Shown: piece after piece, positions 10,001-16,000 of the stretch | Numbering within the stretch: position 1 is the stretch's first letter | How the letters are laid out: every line of letters starts with the position of its first letter | Source of the DNA: Escherichia coli | Lineage (GTDB): Bacteria; Pseudomonadota; Gammaproteobacteria; Enterobacterales; Enterobacteriaceae | Length of the DNA: 64,000 nucleotides | NCBI RefSeq assembly: GCF_044324785.1 | Contig: NZ_CP172127.1 | Reading direction: 5' to 3' (one strand) | Made by a program: the position numbers

Positions 10001-13000
10001 TGCAAAGGTTTCAGTGACTGGGCTAATTCAGTAAAAGAAGGCGCATCGAATGACTTCAAAAAAAATGTGGATATAGCATTGGTGAGATTGTTTAAATGTG
10101 TTGAACTCCACAATAGTAAACTTGACTTAACAGATCTTCACTTGGGGTCTTTGCCACCTCTTCCATCCTGGATTGAGGTGCTTTATCTTCGTCATAATAG
10201 CCTTGCCACAATACAGATTCCCAAATTCTGCAAAGAATTAGAGCTCGATTTCAATAATTATATGGTATTTCCAAAAGTATCCGATGGAATTACCCAAGTC
10301 TCCGTAGATAATAATCTGATATCGCGTGTTGACTCATCTCCGTCAAAGGCTATGACAATTTCTATTTATCGCAATAAAATATGGTAAATACCAGCAATGC
10401 CTGAGACTACTAAGCTGTTTAATTGTGGCGATAATAAGATAAAAGAAATTCAATACTTCCCAAATCATCTGGAGAAAGCACGTATGGAGTGTGATATTGA
10501 GGTTGTCTCTGCGATATATAGCAATAAAGAATTACTTTTTAAAGAATGTAATTCTTTTGAAGAGACATTTTTATATCATGGACTTTGACAGGGATTTGCT
10601 ATGAAAGATCGCAGCGAAAATATATTGTTACGAATTCCGCTGATTATGATAAATATTCTGACATAGTCAAAAGGGTCGTAATAGATGGTAAGAATTAAAT
10701 AGTTAGGCGTAATTGTGTCACCGGAATAGAGGTTTCTTGTGGCGCATGTGGAAGGGGCGTCTAAGGACAAGGCGTTTCCGGCTGGAGATAAATAAAGGCG
10801 CAGCGCGTCGAATGCAAGAATGTGCTGCGTCTGGCTCATGGCAATTCATTATTTTCGCATAGCGTCAATGATAAAAATCGACTGTGTGGATCAAATCGAT
10901 AATCAGCAAACGGTTCGCAATCAACGAAACCATGCTTCAAATAAAGTTGATGGCAGGCCGTAAATCCAGCCTGTGTACCCGTTTCTAAGCTCAGGCGATG
11001 AAGACATCTGTCCTGGGCGACCTGCAAAATGTGGCGTAAAATCAGACTGGCGACACCTCGACGTAAATAATTTGGCGCGGTACGCATTGATTTCAGTTCG
11101 CCATGTTTATCATCCAGCAACTTCAGCGCACCAATTCCTGCGAGTTGTTCGCCTTCCCATACTGACCAGAATGTTACTTTCGGGTTACGTAATTTTTGCA
11201 CATCTAAAGCATGACTGCTTTCGGGGGGAGACTGCTGCAGCATGCCGGAAATATGGTAAGCCACTAATGCTTGCACTGCTGGATGGGTGAGATCATCTGT
11301 TTTAATCGTGAACATAACGATTCCGCATTGGTGTTATTTTTGCAATATGCCAACAGGTAATGAAATCTTTGTCTAATAGAGATTTCTTATGACGCAGTAT
11401 TGTTGATCAATAATCTTCAGGCTTGTCAAACAGGTTGAATTAACTCCGCGCCCTGGTTTTTGACATTACCCACCGCGCGCGATACCGGGTGCCAGGTGAA
11501 CTGGTTTGCTGGCACACAGCCACTGGTAGCGATTTCTGAGGCTTCTTTACCGCCAATATCTTGCCGCATCCATTCCCGCGCAGCTTCTGGCGACAGTACC
11601 AGTGGGCGGCGGTCATGAATATCTACCAGACCCTGGTCTGCTGCTGCAGTGACAATCAAAAATCCTTCGGCTTCGTCACCGCGCTCGAACGGTGTGCTAC
11701 CTATCGCGGCCAGAAAAACAGGTTGTCCATCAGCACGATAGATAAAATAAGGCTGCTTTTTGTCGCCTTCTTTTTTCCACTCAAACCAGCCATCGGCAAA
11801 ACAGATTGCCCGACCATGTTGCCAGAGCGGTTTAAACATGAGACTGGTTGCGGCAGTTTCTACGCGGGCGTTAATCAGCGGCGGTTTATCCCACCATCCG
11901 GGAGCATATCCCCAAAAAACCGGATCCAGATGAAGGTGTTCATCACGTTCACTGAGTAGAAGAACTTTGGTTCCCGGCGCGACGTTGTATCTGCCAATGG
12001 GTTCGGGATCGTAGGGAATATCGCGTTCAATATCTTCCGCGAGAAGCGCAAGGTAATCCTCACGCGTTTGGGATTGGGCAAAGCGTCCACACATAGCAAC
12101 CTCCTGAGATCATACTGAAAAGAATAGGAGAGGGGGCGGGTAAAATCTATGTGATACAGAGGTAACGATGTTCCCGCTGTTGGCCACAGCGGGAATGAGG
12201 GATTACTTCCGAATTAAATAACGAATGGTCGGCCCGTCTTGCTGAATATCCAGCACCGTATAGCCGTGATTACGCGCATCCAGTGGAATATTATTGATCG
12301 ACTGCGGACAGTCGCTCACCACTTCCAGGATCTCACCTTTTTTTAATTGCGGCATCGCCTCAAGGGTTGCGACTGCCGGATAAGGGCAGGGTTCACCCAC
12401 CATATCAAGGCGGTAATCAGGAACGATATTTTTCATGCGATCTCCTTAGCAGTCTGCGGTGCCGCACGGCGGAAGAAGCGTTTTTCCCAGCCGATAATCA
12501 ACATCAGCGCAGCAAACAGCAGCAAATATGTCACCAGCAGGCCACCCATCGGGCCAAAGGTTTTCAGCAGGTTGATTTTGTCCCAGTCGGTGGCCAGCGC
12601 CGGAGCGAAATCATCCCAGTAGTACGCCAGAATCGTTGATCCGATCACGTTGCCCAGACCGACCCACCAGTAGTGCACCTGGCCTTCTACCGCGCGGTAC
12701 ATCCAGCCGGTTTCGCAGCCGCCTGCCAGCACGATGCCAAAACCAAAAAGTAAACCACCAATTACCGCATTTGGTCCCGCCCACATGATTTTAGGTTCAA
12801 CGCCTAACTGTACGTAACTGAAGATCCCGATGGCACTCACCGCCATACCGATAATGATTGCTTTCGCCATATGGGTACGTCCGGTGATCCACATATCGCG
12901 GAACGCCGAAGTAAAGCAGATTTGCGCACGTTCAATCAGTAAACCAAAGCCGACGCCAAACAGCATTGCCAGCCCCAGTTTTGGTTGGTTCATCGCCGTG

Positions 13001-16000
13001 AGCAGCGCCCAGCCCAGCATGCCGAAAAAGACCAGCATCCCGAGACGAAAACGACGCCGCGCCTGATCCGGTTTTTGCGTCAGCGGTGAGGCGGCAGAAA
13101 CTTTCTGCATTTTCACGGGAATACGGAAGATGGGCAGCAGGGTAAAGCGCGCGCCAAACCATGAACCAATGGCAGTGGCGATGGCAAAGAACCAGGCATG
13201 CAGCGAGAACTGAGGAATGCCGGTAAAGAACGCCGCCAGGTTACAGCCCATTGCCAGACGCGCGCCAAAACCAGCGATAATACCGCCAATGATGGCCTGC
13301 ATAATGCGGATACGGCTGCGTGGCATGCGCAGTTTGACATTGTTGGCCCACAGCGCTGCGGCAAAGCAGCCGCCAAACATACCGAGGATCATCATCCCGT
13401 CGATGCGGGTTAATGGCGATCCTTCCAGATGGATAATTTTAAAATAACCCCACTCTTCAGCATGGACGCCGAACAGCTGCAGGAGCTGACCGCCCCAACG
13501 GGTAAATTCACCCGTGACAGCCCAAAAGGTGCCAGTGATGCCAAAATAGTAAGTGGAGAGAATACCCGCCGCGATGACCGCAGGGATGGGTGCCCAGAAT
13601 TTAATCAACCAGGCGTGTTTGAATTGCTGCCATGACATGAATGTAGCCTCTGAACTCAGAAGGTTTGAAACAAGAGTCGCGAATCATACATCAAGCAAAT
13701 TTATTTTCGGGGTAATAATTCACAAAAATAATAGTTAGATCAAATTTCTCTCTGAACCTGGAAAGGCTGGCGACATCAGGGCTTTAATGCCACAATCCTC
13801 TTTTCTTCTCATGCAGGACGAATGATGAAAAAACTCGCAATTGCAGGCGCGCTCATGTTGCTGGCGGGCTGTGCCGAAGTCGAAAACTATAACAATGTCG
13901 TGAAAACCCCCGCGCCGGACTGGCTGGCGGGCTACTGGCAGACCAAAGGGCCGCAACGTGCGCTGGTCAGTCCGGAAGCGATAGGCAGCCTGATTGTCAC
14001 TAAAGAGGGCGATACCCTGGATTGCCGTCAGTGGCAGCGGGTGATTGCCGTGCCGGGTAAGTTGACATTGATGTCTGATGATCTCACTAACGTTACCGTG
14101 AAACGGGAGCTGTACGAGGTTGAGCGTGACGGTAACACCATTGAGTACGATGGTATGACGATGGAGCGTGTGGATCGCCCGACGGCAGAGTGTGCCGCCG
14201 CGCTGGATAAAGCGCCGTTACCGACGCCACTGCCGTAATGAAATCTCCCCGGCTTGCCGCCGGGGATGAATTTAAATCACCTCTTCGATAACCCACACGC
14301 TGACGCTGCCGCCGTTGCAAAAGAAGGTCGCTTCGCCGTTTTCGTCGGTTACTACGCTCTCTTGCCGATTCCCCAGAAAATCACGCCAGGTTTTATTGCC
14401 GTAATTCTCTCCCAGATGAATGGTTTTTTCGCCATCATCCCCGTTTGACATAACCACCACGCAGCCGGGATATTCGTCGGTGCCACTGCGGCTAAAGGCA
14501 ATGCAGTTCGGATGGTCGAAAAATAACGTCTGTACACCGTGGGCGAAACGCTGACGGGCGAGAATTAACTCATCAAGTTGTTCGATTATTGGCATATCTA
14601 TCGGATAGGTTTGCCCGTCACCGCCAACATCTTCGTAATGCGCGCCATAGAGGTCAGGATAGAATACCGAAGGAACGCCATTTTCCCGCAACAAAATTAG
14701 AGCATACGCCAGCGGTTTAAACCACGGTTCGACCGGTGCTTCGAGGGCTTGCAACGGTTGGGTGTCGTGGTTGGCAACGAGTGTTACGGCGTGGAAAGGA
14801 TCGGCTTCCACTAATGTACCCGTGAAAATCTGCGTCATGTCGTAGCCGCGCCCCATGCGCGATGCTTCATGGAATTTCATCTGCAGCGGCGCATCAAACA
14901 GCATGGTTTTGCCTTCCACCTGATCAATATATGTTTGCAGTTTATCGACTTCATGCGACCAGTACTCTGCCACAATAAACAGCGGCTTTGGCGCAACTTC
15001 CTGTACGTGTTCGATCCACTCTTTATAAAACCACGCCGGAATATGTTTAACCGCATCAAGACGAAAACCGTCGCATTGTGTTTGTTCCATCACCCAGCGC
15101 GCCCAGTATTTAATCTCTTCCGTCACGGCATGATTGCGGAAATCGATATTCTCACCCATCAGATAATCGAAATTACCGAGTTCATCATCAACCTGATCGT
15201 TCCAGCCTTCGCCGGTGTAGTCGTTAACAATTTTAAATATGCCATCTTCATCAGGGTTTTCGATATGGTCGATACCGCTAAAACATTTGAAATCCCAGAT
15301 AAACTGCGAGTATTGCCCGGCACGGGCGGGGAAGGTGTAACGCGTCCAGCCTTCGCACTCAATGATTTCTTCATCAATTTGCGTACGGTCATCAGCATTT
15401 ACACGTTGCACGCGAATAGCTTCTTTTTCATCCGCGCCCATTTTGTGGTTGACTACCACGTCCAACAGCACCGCAATGTCATTACGTTTCAGAGCGTCAA
15501 TGGCGGCCAGCAGTTGTGCTTTATCGCCATATTTAGTAGGGATGCTGCCTTTCTGATCAAACTCACCTAAATCAAATAAATCATAGGAGTCGTAGCCGAC
15601 CGAATACCCGCCCGATGCGCCTTTATAGGCGGGCGGCAACCAGACCATATTGATACCAATATCATTAAAACCGTCGGCGCGCTCGGCCAGTTCAGGCCAG
15701 AGCTTACCGCCTTCCGGGTAATACCAGTGAAAACATTGTAACAGCGTGGGATTACGCATTCTTCGACTCCATTCAAGGGGAACATTAGAAGCGTAGCCGT
15801 AATCGGATTATTCGCGAGCCATCGGCTCGTTAAGATTCAAAAGAGGTTATCCTGCGGAGCCAGCACAAAGCCGCCCTGATCGCCATAGGCACTTAACACC
15901 GATTTTTGCATCGATGACTGACCGACCAGTTTCGCCAGTTCATCCATCCGAATCTGTAATAACTGCTTCACCTTGCTTTCGTTATCGAGAATCAGGCGCA

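What the first reader, a model, noticed from the sequence alone, without database searches (positions are those of the whole stretch)
11426..13638. yedK (SRAP abasic-site sensor) next to the yedEF sulfur/selenium transport pair
YedK starts MCGRF; Cys2 is the nucleophile that crosslinks SRAP/HMCES proteins to abasic sites in single-stranded DNA. It sits between a GNAT acetyltransferase gene and the coupled yedE-yedF pair (YeeE/YedE-family transporter plus TusA-like protein, 4-nt overlap). All are co-oriented on the minus strand, raising the question of co-regulation between DNA-damage tolerance and sulfur/selenium handling. This is speculative.
Basis: inference. Interest (0 to 1): 0.25.

Follow-up and report, generated by a model that had tools for sequence, protein, structure and literature searches.

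The report
yedK beside yedEF: neighbours, not partners

Summary
Observation confirmed, interpretation not supported. The window is an Escherichia coli chromosome segment (fli-yed-amyA region). It carries yedE (12433-13638), yedF (12203-12436, ATGA overlap with yedE), yedK (11426-12094; MCGRF, with Cys2/Asn75/Glu105/His160) and the GNAT gene yedL, all on the minus strand.

Several lines argue against co-regulation of yedK with yedEF:
- There is a 108-nt gap after yedF, opening with a 10-bp G+C hairpin.
- A sigma-S-type extended -10 (CTATTCT here) lies about 30 nt upstream of yedK. CTATACT or a near variant is there in 65 of 79 sequences, whatever lies upstream.
- There is no LexA box.
- Only 2 of 78 yedK loci outside Escherichia have yedEF directly adjacent, whereas 39 have umuC/umuD-like genes within 6 kb.
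- About a fifth of complete E. coli genomes do not carry yedK full-length; in the ST131 genome examined it is a truncated pseudogene with yedEF intact.
- Published data show opposite growth-phase responses. They place yedK alone among the top RpoS-dependent genes and yedEF in a separate anaerobic iModulon. Reg-Seq assayed the region upstream of yedK as a promoter of its own.

The adjacency is best read as a by-product of island turnover at the yedF|fliE junction. The locus is already known and of low interest.

The parts
12433..13638 (-). yedE, a YedE/FdhT-family membrane protein (candidate selenium transporter of the YeeE/YedE fold)
   Evidence: ORF of 401 aa. NF033796 at 620 bits against a cut-off of 350, and PF04143. 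The cysteine motifs align with Spirochaeta YeeE, PDB 6LEO.
12203..12436 (-). yedF, a 77-aa single-domain TusA/SirA-like protein, translationally coupled to yedE through an ATGA overlap
   Evidence: PF01206, and NF008242 at 156 bits against a cut-off of 79. Matches PDB 1JE3 at 6e-49. The overlap and the AAGGAG Shine-Dalgarno inside the yedE 3' end are seen. The CPYP motif is present.
12171..12195 (-). G+C-rich hairpin (10-bp stem, 5-nt loop) starting 7 nt after the yedF stop. Probably the 3' end or terminator of the yedEF transcript; it has no T-tract.
   Evidence: Folded (z = -2.7 for the intergenic region; dG -18 kcal/mol). Hairpins of different sequence sit in the same place after yedF in Franconibacter and Enterobacter vonholyi. 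The terminator scan did not call it because there is no T run.
12121..12127 (-). CTATTCT, a putative sigma-S-type extended -10 element of a yedK-specific promoter, 27-33 nt upstream of the ATG
   Evidence: CTA[CT][AGT]CT is found 20-45 nt upstream of the yedK ATG in 65 of 79 sequences (60 have exactly CTATACT). Shuffled controls give a mean of 1.4 and a maximum of 8. It is also present in a Klebsiella record and a phage copy. The sigma-S consensus TCTATACTTAA is taken from PMC3367168. Promoter activity and the transcription start were not measured here.
11426..12094 (-). yedK, an SRAP abasic-site crosslinking protein with a strong Shine-Dalgarno (GGAGG)
   Evidence: PF02586 at 4e-51. About 96% identical to the PDB YedK structures. 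Catalytic and DNA-contact residues are conserved, except for a private R85L change.
10836..11315 (-). yedL, a GNAT N-acetyltransferase, 110 nt downstream of yedK. No terminator-like site lies between them, so yedK-yedL co-transcription is possible.
   Evidence: PF00583 at 3.7e-14. No YedL homolog lies next to any of the 80 yedK loci outside E. coli. No terminator-like site was found in 11316-11425.
13639..13821 (.). Divergent yedE / yedD intergenic region, which holds the likely yedEF promoter
   Evidence: One sigma-70-like site on the minus strand at 13756-13728 (TTCAGA-17-TATTAT, 9 of 12 matches). No convincing LexA, FNR, CRP or ArcA box.
9260..10698 (.). Low-GC (33-37%) island remnant between fliE and yedL: an integrase fragment and a frameshifted DUF5503 gene (yedN-like)
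   Evidence: Composition profile. Annotation of a collinear E. coli record with the same coordinates. PF17607 at 2.6e-67. PMC5122947 describes yedF-fliE as flanking a variable region.

Best explanation
This stretch holds two unrelated transcription units that lie side by side.

**Unit 1, yedEF.** It is a translationally coupled bicistron: a YedE/FdhT membrane protein plus a TusA-like partner. It is transcribed from the yedD-yedE divergent region and most likely ends at the G+C hairpin just after the yedF stop. Its published expression places it with anaerobic selenium/molybdenum-related genes.

**Unit 2, yedK.** It may extend into yedL. yedK has its own promoter in the 108-nt gap, with a sigma-S-type extended -10 (CTATTCT; CTATACTT in relatives) that accompanies the gene wherever it is found. 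This fits its published strong RpoS dependence and its induction on entry to stationary phase.

**YedK protein.** It is the known SRAP protein. After removal of Met1, Cys2 forms a thiazolidine crosslink with abasic sites in single-stranded DNA.

**Origin of the adjacency.** It reflects island gain and loss at the yedF|fliE junction, not shared function. In other Enterobacteriaceae, yedK-type genes lie in varied contexts, including prophage-like and plasmid-like ones, most often near umuDC.

**Shown versus inferred.** Gene identities, motif conservation, lack of conserved adjacency and absence of a LexA box are shown here. The expression differences come from the cited papers. The exact promoter, the transcription start and termination at the hairpin are inferred.
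For: - **Identities:**
- **Gap and hairpin:**
- **Own promoter element:** 65 of 79 sequences carry CTA[CT][AGT]CT 20-45 nt upstream of the yedK ATG, against about 1.4 expected. The sequence upstream of the motif is unrelated between contexts (40 classes) and information content falls to zero there. The motif is also seen in a Klebsiella record and in phage PHB10.
- **No LexA box:** none upstream of yedK in the window or in the other 78 sequences scanned. The same scan finds the umuDC operators downstream of yedK in 5 loci, which serves as a positive control.
- **Adjacency not conserved:** yedEF lies within 6 kb in 3 of 78 non-Escherichia yedK loci and is directly adjacent only in 2 Franconibacter loci. 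umuC/umuD-like genes lie within 6 kb in 39.
- **Mobility:** YedK homologs occur in 1,950 plasmid records and 44 phage records.
- **Dispensability:** only 4,255 of 5,377 E. coli genomes cover at least 80% of the yedK segment. In the ST131 genome examined, yedK is a C-terminally truncated pseudogene beside IS200/IS605 and emrE-ybcLM, while yedEF is intact.
- **Literature:**
  - PMC2241611: opposite fold changes.
  - PMC2907692: yedK has a WT/rpoS ratio of 43 and is listed alone.
  - PMC7888660: a two-gene 'yedEF' operon in an anaerobic iModulon.
  - PMC7567609: the yedK upstream region was assayed as a promoter, with a repressor-type site.
  - PMC5122947: yedF and fliE are ancestral genes that flank different islands in Salmonella and E. 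coli.
Against: - The hairpin after yedF has no T-tract in E. coli and the terminator scan did not call it, so some read-through from yedEF into yedK is possible.
- In this window the -10 element is CTATTCT, one mismatch from the CTATACT of most relatives, and no -35 was found.
- The Reg-Seq transcription start for yedK was assumed (45 bp upstream of the ATG), not measured.
- Franconibacter has the same yedE-yedF-yedK layout, so the adjacency may be old, not accidental.
- The 79 sequences come from related species and are not independent samples.
- The expression data are from other E. coli strains (Sakai, EDL933, K-12), not from this one.
Confidence: 0.85

Rival explanations
1. yedE-yedF-yedK(-yedL) is one operon, or is co-regulated, linking selenium/sulfur handling with tolerance of abasic-site damage.
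For: The four genes are co-oriented with short gaps of 108 and 110 nt. The hairpin after yedF has no T-tract. The same yedE-yedF-yedK order occurs in two Franconibacter species.
Against: - Published responses are opposite or unrelated.
- yedK keeps its own conserved -10 element in every context.
- 75 of 78 non-Escherichia yedK loci have no yedEF within 6 kb.
- yedK is a truncated pseudogene in the ST131 genome examined while yedEF stays intact, and about a fifth of E. coli genomes lack a full-length match.
- In Salmonella a different gene follows yedF (PMC5122947).
Confidence: 0.04
2. The units are independent but leaky. Part of the yedEF transcription passes through the T-less hairpin and adds a minor, functionally meaningless share of yedK expression, for example under anaerobiosis.
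For: The hairpin lacks the U-run of a canonical intrinsic terminator and the scan did not call it. The Franconibacter and Enterobacter counterparts have more T-rich tails than the E. coli one.
Against: yedE/yedF and yedK changed in opposite directions at the growth transition. The iModulon lists the operon as yedEF only. Read-through was not measured here or in the papers read.
Confidence: 0.15
3. yedK is a LexA-repressed SOS gene, as the family name 'SOS response-associated peptidase' suggests.
For: SRAP genes neighbour SOS mutagenesis genes (PMC3765255). One meta-analysis table lists yedK under the 'DNA damage' cellular-response category among genes upregulated under multiple stressors (PMC9501238).
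Against: No CTG-N10-CAG site lies in any of the three intergenic regions of the window, and window-wide matches are at chance level (19 against 18.3). None of the 79 sequences scanned has a LexA-like site within 300 nt upstream of yedK, whereas the scan recovers the umuDC boxes.
Confidence: 0.03

Closest known systems
E. coli K-12 YedK (SRAP; PDB 2ICU, 6KBS, 6NUA, 8D2M) and human HMCES
   Same: Full-length SRAP domain with Cys2, Asn75, Glu105 and His160. The DNA contacts Arg4, Trp67/68, Arg77, Thr149 and Arg162 are present. About 96% identical to the crystallised protein. The mechanism is taken from PMC6821365 and PMC9436759.
   Different: Eight amino-acid differences from K-12. One of them, R85L, is in a DNA-contact residue and is absent from 5,426 complete E. 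coli genomes.
E. coli yedEF operon (YedE/FdhT plus YedF), a candidate selenium-metabolism pair
   Same: Both proteins score above the NCBIfam equivalog or exception cut-offs. They show the ATGA translational coupling. YedE and YedF are 100% and 99% identical to those of the best-matching E. coli record.
   Different: Nothing notable. E. coli YedF is the short TusA-only form. It is not the two-domain SirA+DsrE YedF of TIGR03527 (22.8 bits against a cut-off of 110; PMC5322559).
TsuA/TsuB (YeeE/YeeD) thiosulfate uptake system
   Same: Same fold family and the same membrane-protein plus TusA-like partner logic. The conserved Cys motifs align.
   Different: Scores are far below the TsuA and TsuB cut-offs (79-121 bits against 400-645; 43 against 147.5). 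This is therefore the YedE/FdhT branch and not a thiosulfate importer by annotation.
SRAP-umuDC / imuAB-dnaE2 / dinB neighbourhoods (Aravind, Anand and Iyer 2013)
   Same: The nearest relatives of this YedK (about 80-88% identity) commonly sit within 6 kb of umuC/umuD-like genes, often with dinI, invertase or tail-fibre genes.
   Different: In this window there is no umuDC or any remnant of it near yedK. The neighbours are yedEF and a GNAT gene instead.

Membership tests
SRAP / HMCES family (PF02586) | Full-length SRAP domain above the Pfam gathering score | tested here: met
   173.9 bits against a cut-off of 27.1, covering residues 1-211 of 222.
SRAP / HMCES family (PF02586) | Cys immediately after the initiator Met, plus Glu105, His160 and Asn75 | tested here: met
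   MCGRF start. C2, N75, E105 and H160 are present and invariant or nearly so in 77 aligned homologs. Residue roles are from PMC6821365.
SRAP / HMCES family (PF02586) | Forms a thiazolidine crosslink with abasic sites in single-stranded DNA | not testable with these tools
   Inferred from about 96% identity to the crystallised K-12 YedK crosslink structures. The private R85L change could weaken ssDNA binding.
YedE/FdhT selenium-metabolism membrane protein (NF033796) | Score above the curated NCBIfam cut-off | tested here: met
   620.4 bits against 350. The TsuA models score far below their cut-offs.
YedF, short TusA-like form (NF008242) | Equivalog score above the cut-off, with the CPxP cysteine motif | tested here: met
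   156.3 bits against 79. The GEPCPYP motif is present. Matches PDB 1JE3.
Single operon yedE-yedF-yedK | Overlapping or very short intergenic distance with no internal terminator or promoter | tested here: not met
   yedE/yedF overlap by 4 nt. yedF/yedK are 108 nt apart, with a -18 kcal/mol hairpin and a conserved -10-like element between them.
Single operon yedE-yedF-yedK | Gene order conserved across genera | tested here: not met
   Directly adjacent in 2 of 78 non-Escherichia yedK loci. Salmonella has a different gene after yedF (PMC5122947).
Single operon yedE-yedF-yedK | Correlated expression | tested here: not met
   Literature only. Fold changes are opposite. yedK is RpoS-dependent and listed alone. 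The iModulon names only the yedEF operon.
LexA (SOS) regulon | LexA box (CTGT-N8-ACAG type) in the promoter region | tested here: not met
   None in 12075-12260, 13620-13840 or 11300-11440. None upstream of yedK in the 79 sequences scanned. Positive control: the umuDC boxes were recovered.
Sigma-S (RpoS) regulon | Extended -10 resembling TCTATACTTAA at a plausible distance from the start codon | tested here: met
   CTATTCTTT at 12127-12119 in the window. CTATACTT in most relatives. Consensus from PMC3367168.
Sigma-S (RpoS) regulon | Expression depends on rpoS | not testable with these tools
   Published for EDL933: WT/rpoS ratio of 43 in stationary phase (PMC2907692). Whether sigma-S acts directly at this promoter has not been shown.

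The most novel reading that the evidence does not exclude
In Enterobacteriaceae, yedK-type SRAP genes may be a mobile cassette with its own conserved sigma-S-type promoter (CTATACTT). The cassette usually lies near umuDC in varied, often prophage- or plasmid-like, contexts. On this reading, abasic-site shielding is set by the general stress and stationary-phase programme, not by LexA, despite the 'SOS response-associated' name. It could act to restrain or complement Pol V mutagenesis in non-growing cells. The E. coli chromosomal copy beside yedEF would be a stranded cassette that lost its umuDC partner.
Probability: 0.3. Interest if true: 0.35.

Novelty: already known. Interest (0 to 1): 0.1.

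Why it matters
It matters little for the claim as made. The locus is the textbook E. coli yedE-yedF-yedK-yedL arrangement, and every gene belongs to a named family. The practical value is negative: gene adjacency here should not be used to infer a link between selenium/sulfur trafficking and abasic-site repair.

Two by-products could be useful to people who study SRAP proteins in bacteria. First, yedK carries a conserved sigma-S-type -10 and no LexA box across Enterobacteriaceae. Second, it usually lies near umuDC on mobile DNA. Both point to stationary-phase control, not SOS control, and to a functional tie with Pol V.

Tried and rejected
- **LexA boxes.** The pattern search and a stricter CTG-N10-CAG scan of the three intergenic regions and the homolog upstream regions found none upstream of yedK. 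Only the umuDC operators appeared.
- **Terminator and promoter scan.** It did not flag the yedF hairpin or any yedK promoter. Totals were at or below shuffled expectation, so the scan adds nothing either way.
- **FNR, CRP and ArcA consensus matches upstream of yedE.** The best matches had 3-6 mismatches, so no call was made.
- **umuC, umuD, dinI, invertase or tail-fibre remnants in the window.** None lie near yedK.
- **Integrase guess.** I suspected that the ORFs just after Franconibacter yedK were integrases marking an att site. They are Acyl_transf_3 proteins.
- **TATGAT as a -10.** TATGAT, 15-20 nt upstream of the ATG, would put the transcription start inside the Shine-Dalgarno, so I rejected it in favour of CTATTCT.
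- **Rfam.** No RNA family lies in 10.5-14.3 kb.
- **Genome-collection scan.** It returned no named Escherichia coli, albertii or fergusonii genome (only 'Escherichia sp. ESNIH1' and an E. coli-like contig, L002). Within-species comparison therefore relied on the E. coli complete-genome collection.

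
Full report
**1. What is there**

The window is an Escherichia coli chromosome segment. A 4-kb query around the finding matches 5,377 of 5,426 complete E. coli genomes at 95-99% identity, annotated yedL, yedK, yedF, yedE and yedD. A collinear record shows the whole window to be the fliP...fliE / yed / amyA / fliDST / fliC / fliAZ ... flhDC-mot-che region.

- yedE 12433-13638
- yedF 12203-12436
- yedK 11426-12094
- yedL 10836-11315

All four are on the minus strand. yedE and yedF overlap by ATGA.

Family assignments are unambiguous:

| Protein | Family | Score |
|---|---|---|
| YedK | SRAP PF02586 | 4e-51, full length |
| YedF | TusA PF01206 / NF008242 | 156 bits (cut-off 79) |
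| YedE | PF04143 / NF033796 YedE/FdhT | 620 bits (cut-off 350) |
| YedL | GNAT PF00583 | 3.7e-14 |

YedK starts MCGRF and is about 96% identical to the crystallised K-12 protein. It has Cys2, Asn75, Glu105, His160, Arg77, Thr149 and Arg162 (residue roles from PMC6821365).

**2. Is yedK transcriptionally tied to yedEF? Sequence evidence**

yedF and yedK are 108 nt apart. Seven nucleotides after the yedF stop there is a perfect 10-bp G+C-rich hairpin (12171-12195, dG -18 kcal/mol). It has no T-tract, so the terminator scan did not call it. However, hairpins of unrelated sequence occupy the same position after yedF in Franconibacter pulveris, F. helveticus and Enterobacter vonholyi. That points to a conserved 3'-end structure for yedEF.

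Further downstream, 27-33 nt before the yedK ATG, lies CTATTCT (12127-12121). I extracted the sequence upstream of yedK from the homolog loci. CTA[CT][AGT]CT lies 20-45 nt upstream of the ATG in 65 of 79 sequences, and 60 have exactly CTATACT. Shuffled sequences give a mean of 1.4 and a maximum of 8.

The sequences upstream of the motif fall into 40 unrelated classes, and information content drops to zero immediately 5' of it. The two bases after the motif (TT), which were not part of the search pattern, are also conserved. The same element precedes the SRAP gene in a Klebsiella record and in phage PHB10.

CTATACTT is the core of the sigma-S extended -10 consensus TCTATACTTAA (PMC3367168). The most economical reading is that yedK carries its own promoter, and that this promoter moves with the gene.

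**3. LexA**

CTGT-N8-ACAG with up to one mismatch gives 19 hits in the window against 18.3 expected, and none lies in 10.5-14.3 kb. A CTG-N10-CAG scan finds nothing in the yedF-yedK, yedK-yedL or yedD-yedE intergenic regions. It also finds nothing within 300 nt upstream of yedK in any of the 79 sequences. The same scan recovers canonical boxes (TACTGTATATAAAAACAG) in front of umuD in the five loci where umuDC directly follows yedK. By this test yedK is not a LexA target.

**4. Comparative genomics**

A scan of one genome per species returned 80 yedK loci outside E. coli; 78 of them gave a callable yedK ORF for neighbourhood analysis.
- **yedEF.** Three loci have yedE/yedF within 6 kb. Only the two Franconibacter loci have them directly adjacent, in the same yedD-yedE-yedF-yedK layout.
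- **umuDC.** Thirty-nine loci have umuC-like (IMS/IMS_C/DUF4113) and/or umuD-like (Peptidase_S24) genes within 6 kb. These often come with DinI, a DNA invertase, tail-fibre, ArdA or DNA-methylase genes. This reproduces the SRAP-Pol V association described by Aravind et al. (PMC3765255).
- **Mobility.** YedK homologs occur in 1,950 plasmid records (1,065 of them conjugative) and 44 phage records. These include Escherichia phage PHB10 at 84% identity and Gifsy-2 at 79%.
- **YedL.** No YedL homolog accompanies yedK outside E. coli.

Within E. coli, only 4,255 of 5,377 genomes cover at least 80% of the yedK segment. In the ST131 genome examined, yedK is a C-terminally truncated pseudogene next to an IS200/IS605 transposase and emrE-ybcL-ybcM, while yedF and yedE are intact.

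The DNA between fliE and yedL in the window is 33-37% G+C. It holds an integrase fragment and a frameshifted DUF5503 gene. PMC5122947 notes that yedF and fliE are ancestral genes flanking different islands in Salmonella and E. coli. yedK thus sits at the edge of a hot spot for island turnover.

**5. Published expression data**

- In O157:H7 Sakai at a growth transition, yedE (-2.15) and yedF (-2.78) fall while yedK (+2.55) rises. They fall in different clusters (PMC2241611).
- In EDL933, yedK is among the 100 most RpoS-dependent stationary-phase genes, with a WT/rpoS ratio of 43. It is listed alone, and yedE and yedF are not mentioned (PMC2907692).
- Independent component analysis places the two-gene operon 'yedEF' in an uncharacterised, anaerobically active iModulon with the ynj/ydj, yjiLM and ynjE genes. 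yedK is not listed (PMC7888660).
- Reg-Seq treated the yedK upstream region as a promoter in its own right and reported one repressor-type site. The transcription start was assumed to lie 45 bp upstream of the ATG, and TreR was suggested by mass spectrometry (PMC7567609).

**6. Explanation**

- **yedEF** is a coupled pair for selenium/sulfur trafficking. The function is predicted from co-occurrence with SelD (PMC5322559) and from homology to the YeeE/YeeD thiosulfate system.
- **yedK** is an independently transcribed abasic-site shield, probably sigma-S-dependent, and possibly co-transcribed with yedL.
- **The adjacency** is a genomic accident of island insertion at yedF|fliE.

Residual uncertainty:
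- The E. coli hairpin lacks a U-run, so minor read-through is possible.
- The transcription start was not measured.
- Franconibacter shares the arrangement, so the insertion may be old.

**7. Novelty and score**

Everything in the finding is already annotated and characterised, and the speculative link is not supported. The conserved sigma-S-type -10 that travels with yedK, and the absence of LexA boxes, are modest new observations. They are consistent with existing array data and with the known SRAP-umuDC association. Interest is low.

Noticed in passing
window 11840-11842 (yedK codon 85): This strain's YedK has Leu85 (CTC). 75 of 76 aligned homologs have Arg and one has Lys. The Leu-containing 31-mer occurs in 0 of 5,426 complete E. 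coli genomes, while the Arg (CGC) version matches 1,075 exactly. Arg85 contacts DNA, and R85A raised the ssDNA Kd from 2.2 to 16.9 uM (PMC6821365). This is either a private variant or a sequencing error.
   Followed up: yes
window 12121-12127, and the region upstream of yedK in L002-L081, L084 and L085: A sigma-S-type extended -10 (CTATACTT; CTATTCT in the window) is conserved 28-38 nt upstream of yedK in 65 of 79 sequences, whatever lies further upstream. FliZ, encoded about 9 kb away in this window (approx. 20.9-21.4 kb by collinearity with L083), is reported to bind such elements (PMC3367168). It could be the unexplained 'repressor' seen at yedK by Reg-Seq. That link is speculation and was not tested.
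   Followed up: partly
L082 (E. coli ST131) 5185-6440; L002 1354-4876: In the ST131 genome examined, yedK is truncated at its 3' end beside IS200/IS605 tnpA and an emrE-ybcL-ybcM block resembling the DLP12 prophage. An E. coli-like contig (L002, labelled a Lachnospiraceae MAG and probably contamination) has an intact yedK followed by an OmpC-like porin, an AraC-family gene, a PEBP-family gene and an SMR efflux gene. This shows several alternative islands at this junction.
   Followed up: partly
window 9260-10698: A low-GC (33-37%) remnant island sits between fliE and yedL. It holds an integrase fragment and a frameshifted DUF5503 gene (267-aa ORF at 9584-10387 plus a 63-aa ORF at 10397-10588).
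   Followed up: partly
window 12433-13638 (YedE): Against Spirochaeta YeeE (PDB 6LEO), the two halves of YedE align in swapped order: YedE 224-333 with YeeE 5-116, and YedE 71-164 with YeeE 233-325. The two internal repeats therefore appear permuted relative to the thiosulfate transporter.
   Followed up: no
L003-L081 (many Enterobacteriaceae genomes): Several species carry two yedK paralogs at about 80-86% identity to the query, in different contexts. Examples are Citrobacter gillenii (L004 and L020), Enterobacter hormaechei (L007 and L028) and Enterobacter cloacae (L026 and L054). Recurrent neighbours are dinI, a cold-shock gene, a DNA invertase and tail-fibre genes.
   Followed up: partly
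window 61473-61780, 48137-48214 and 29625-29924: Rfam gathering-threshold hits elsewhere in the window: MicL sRNA, C0465 RNA and three tRNAs. The tRNAs sit about 165 nt earlier than in the collinear E. coli record L083, which implies a length difference somewhere upstream of them that was not localised.
   Followed up: no
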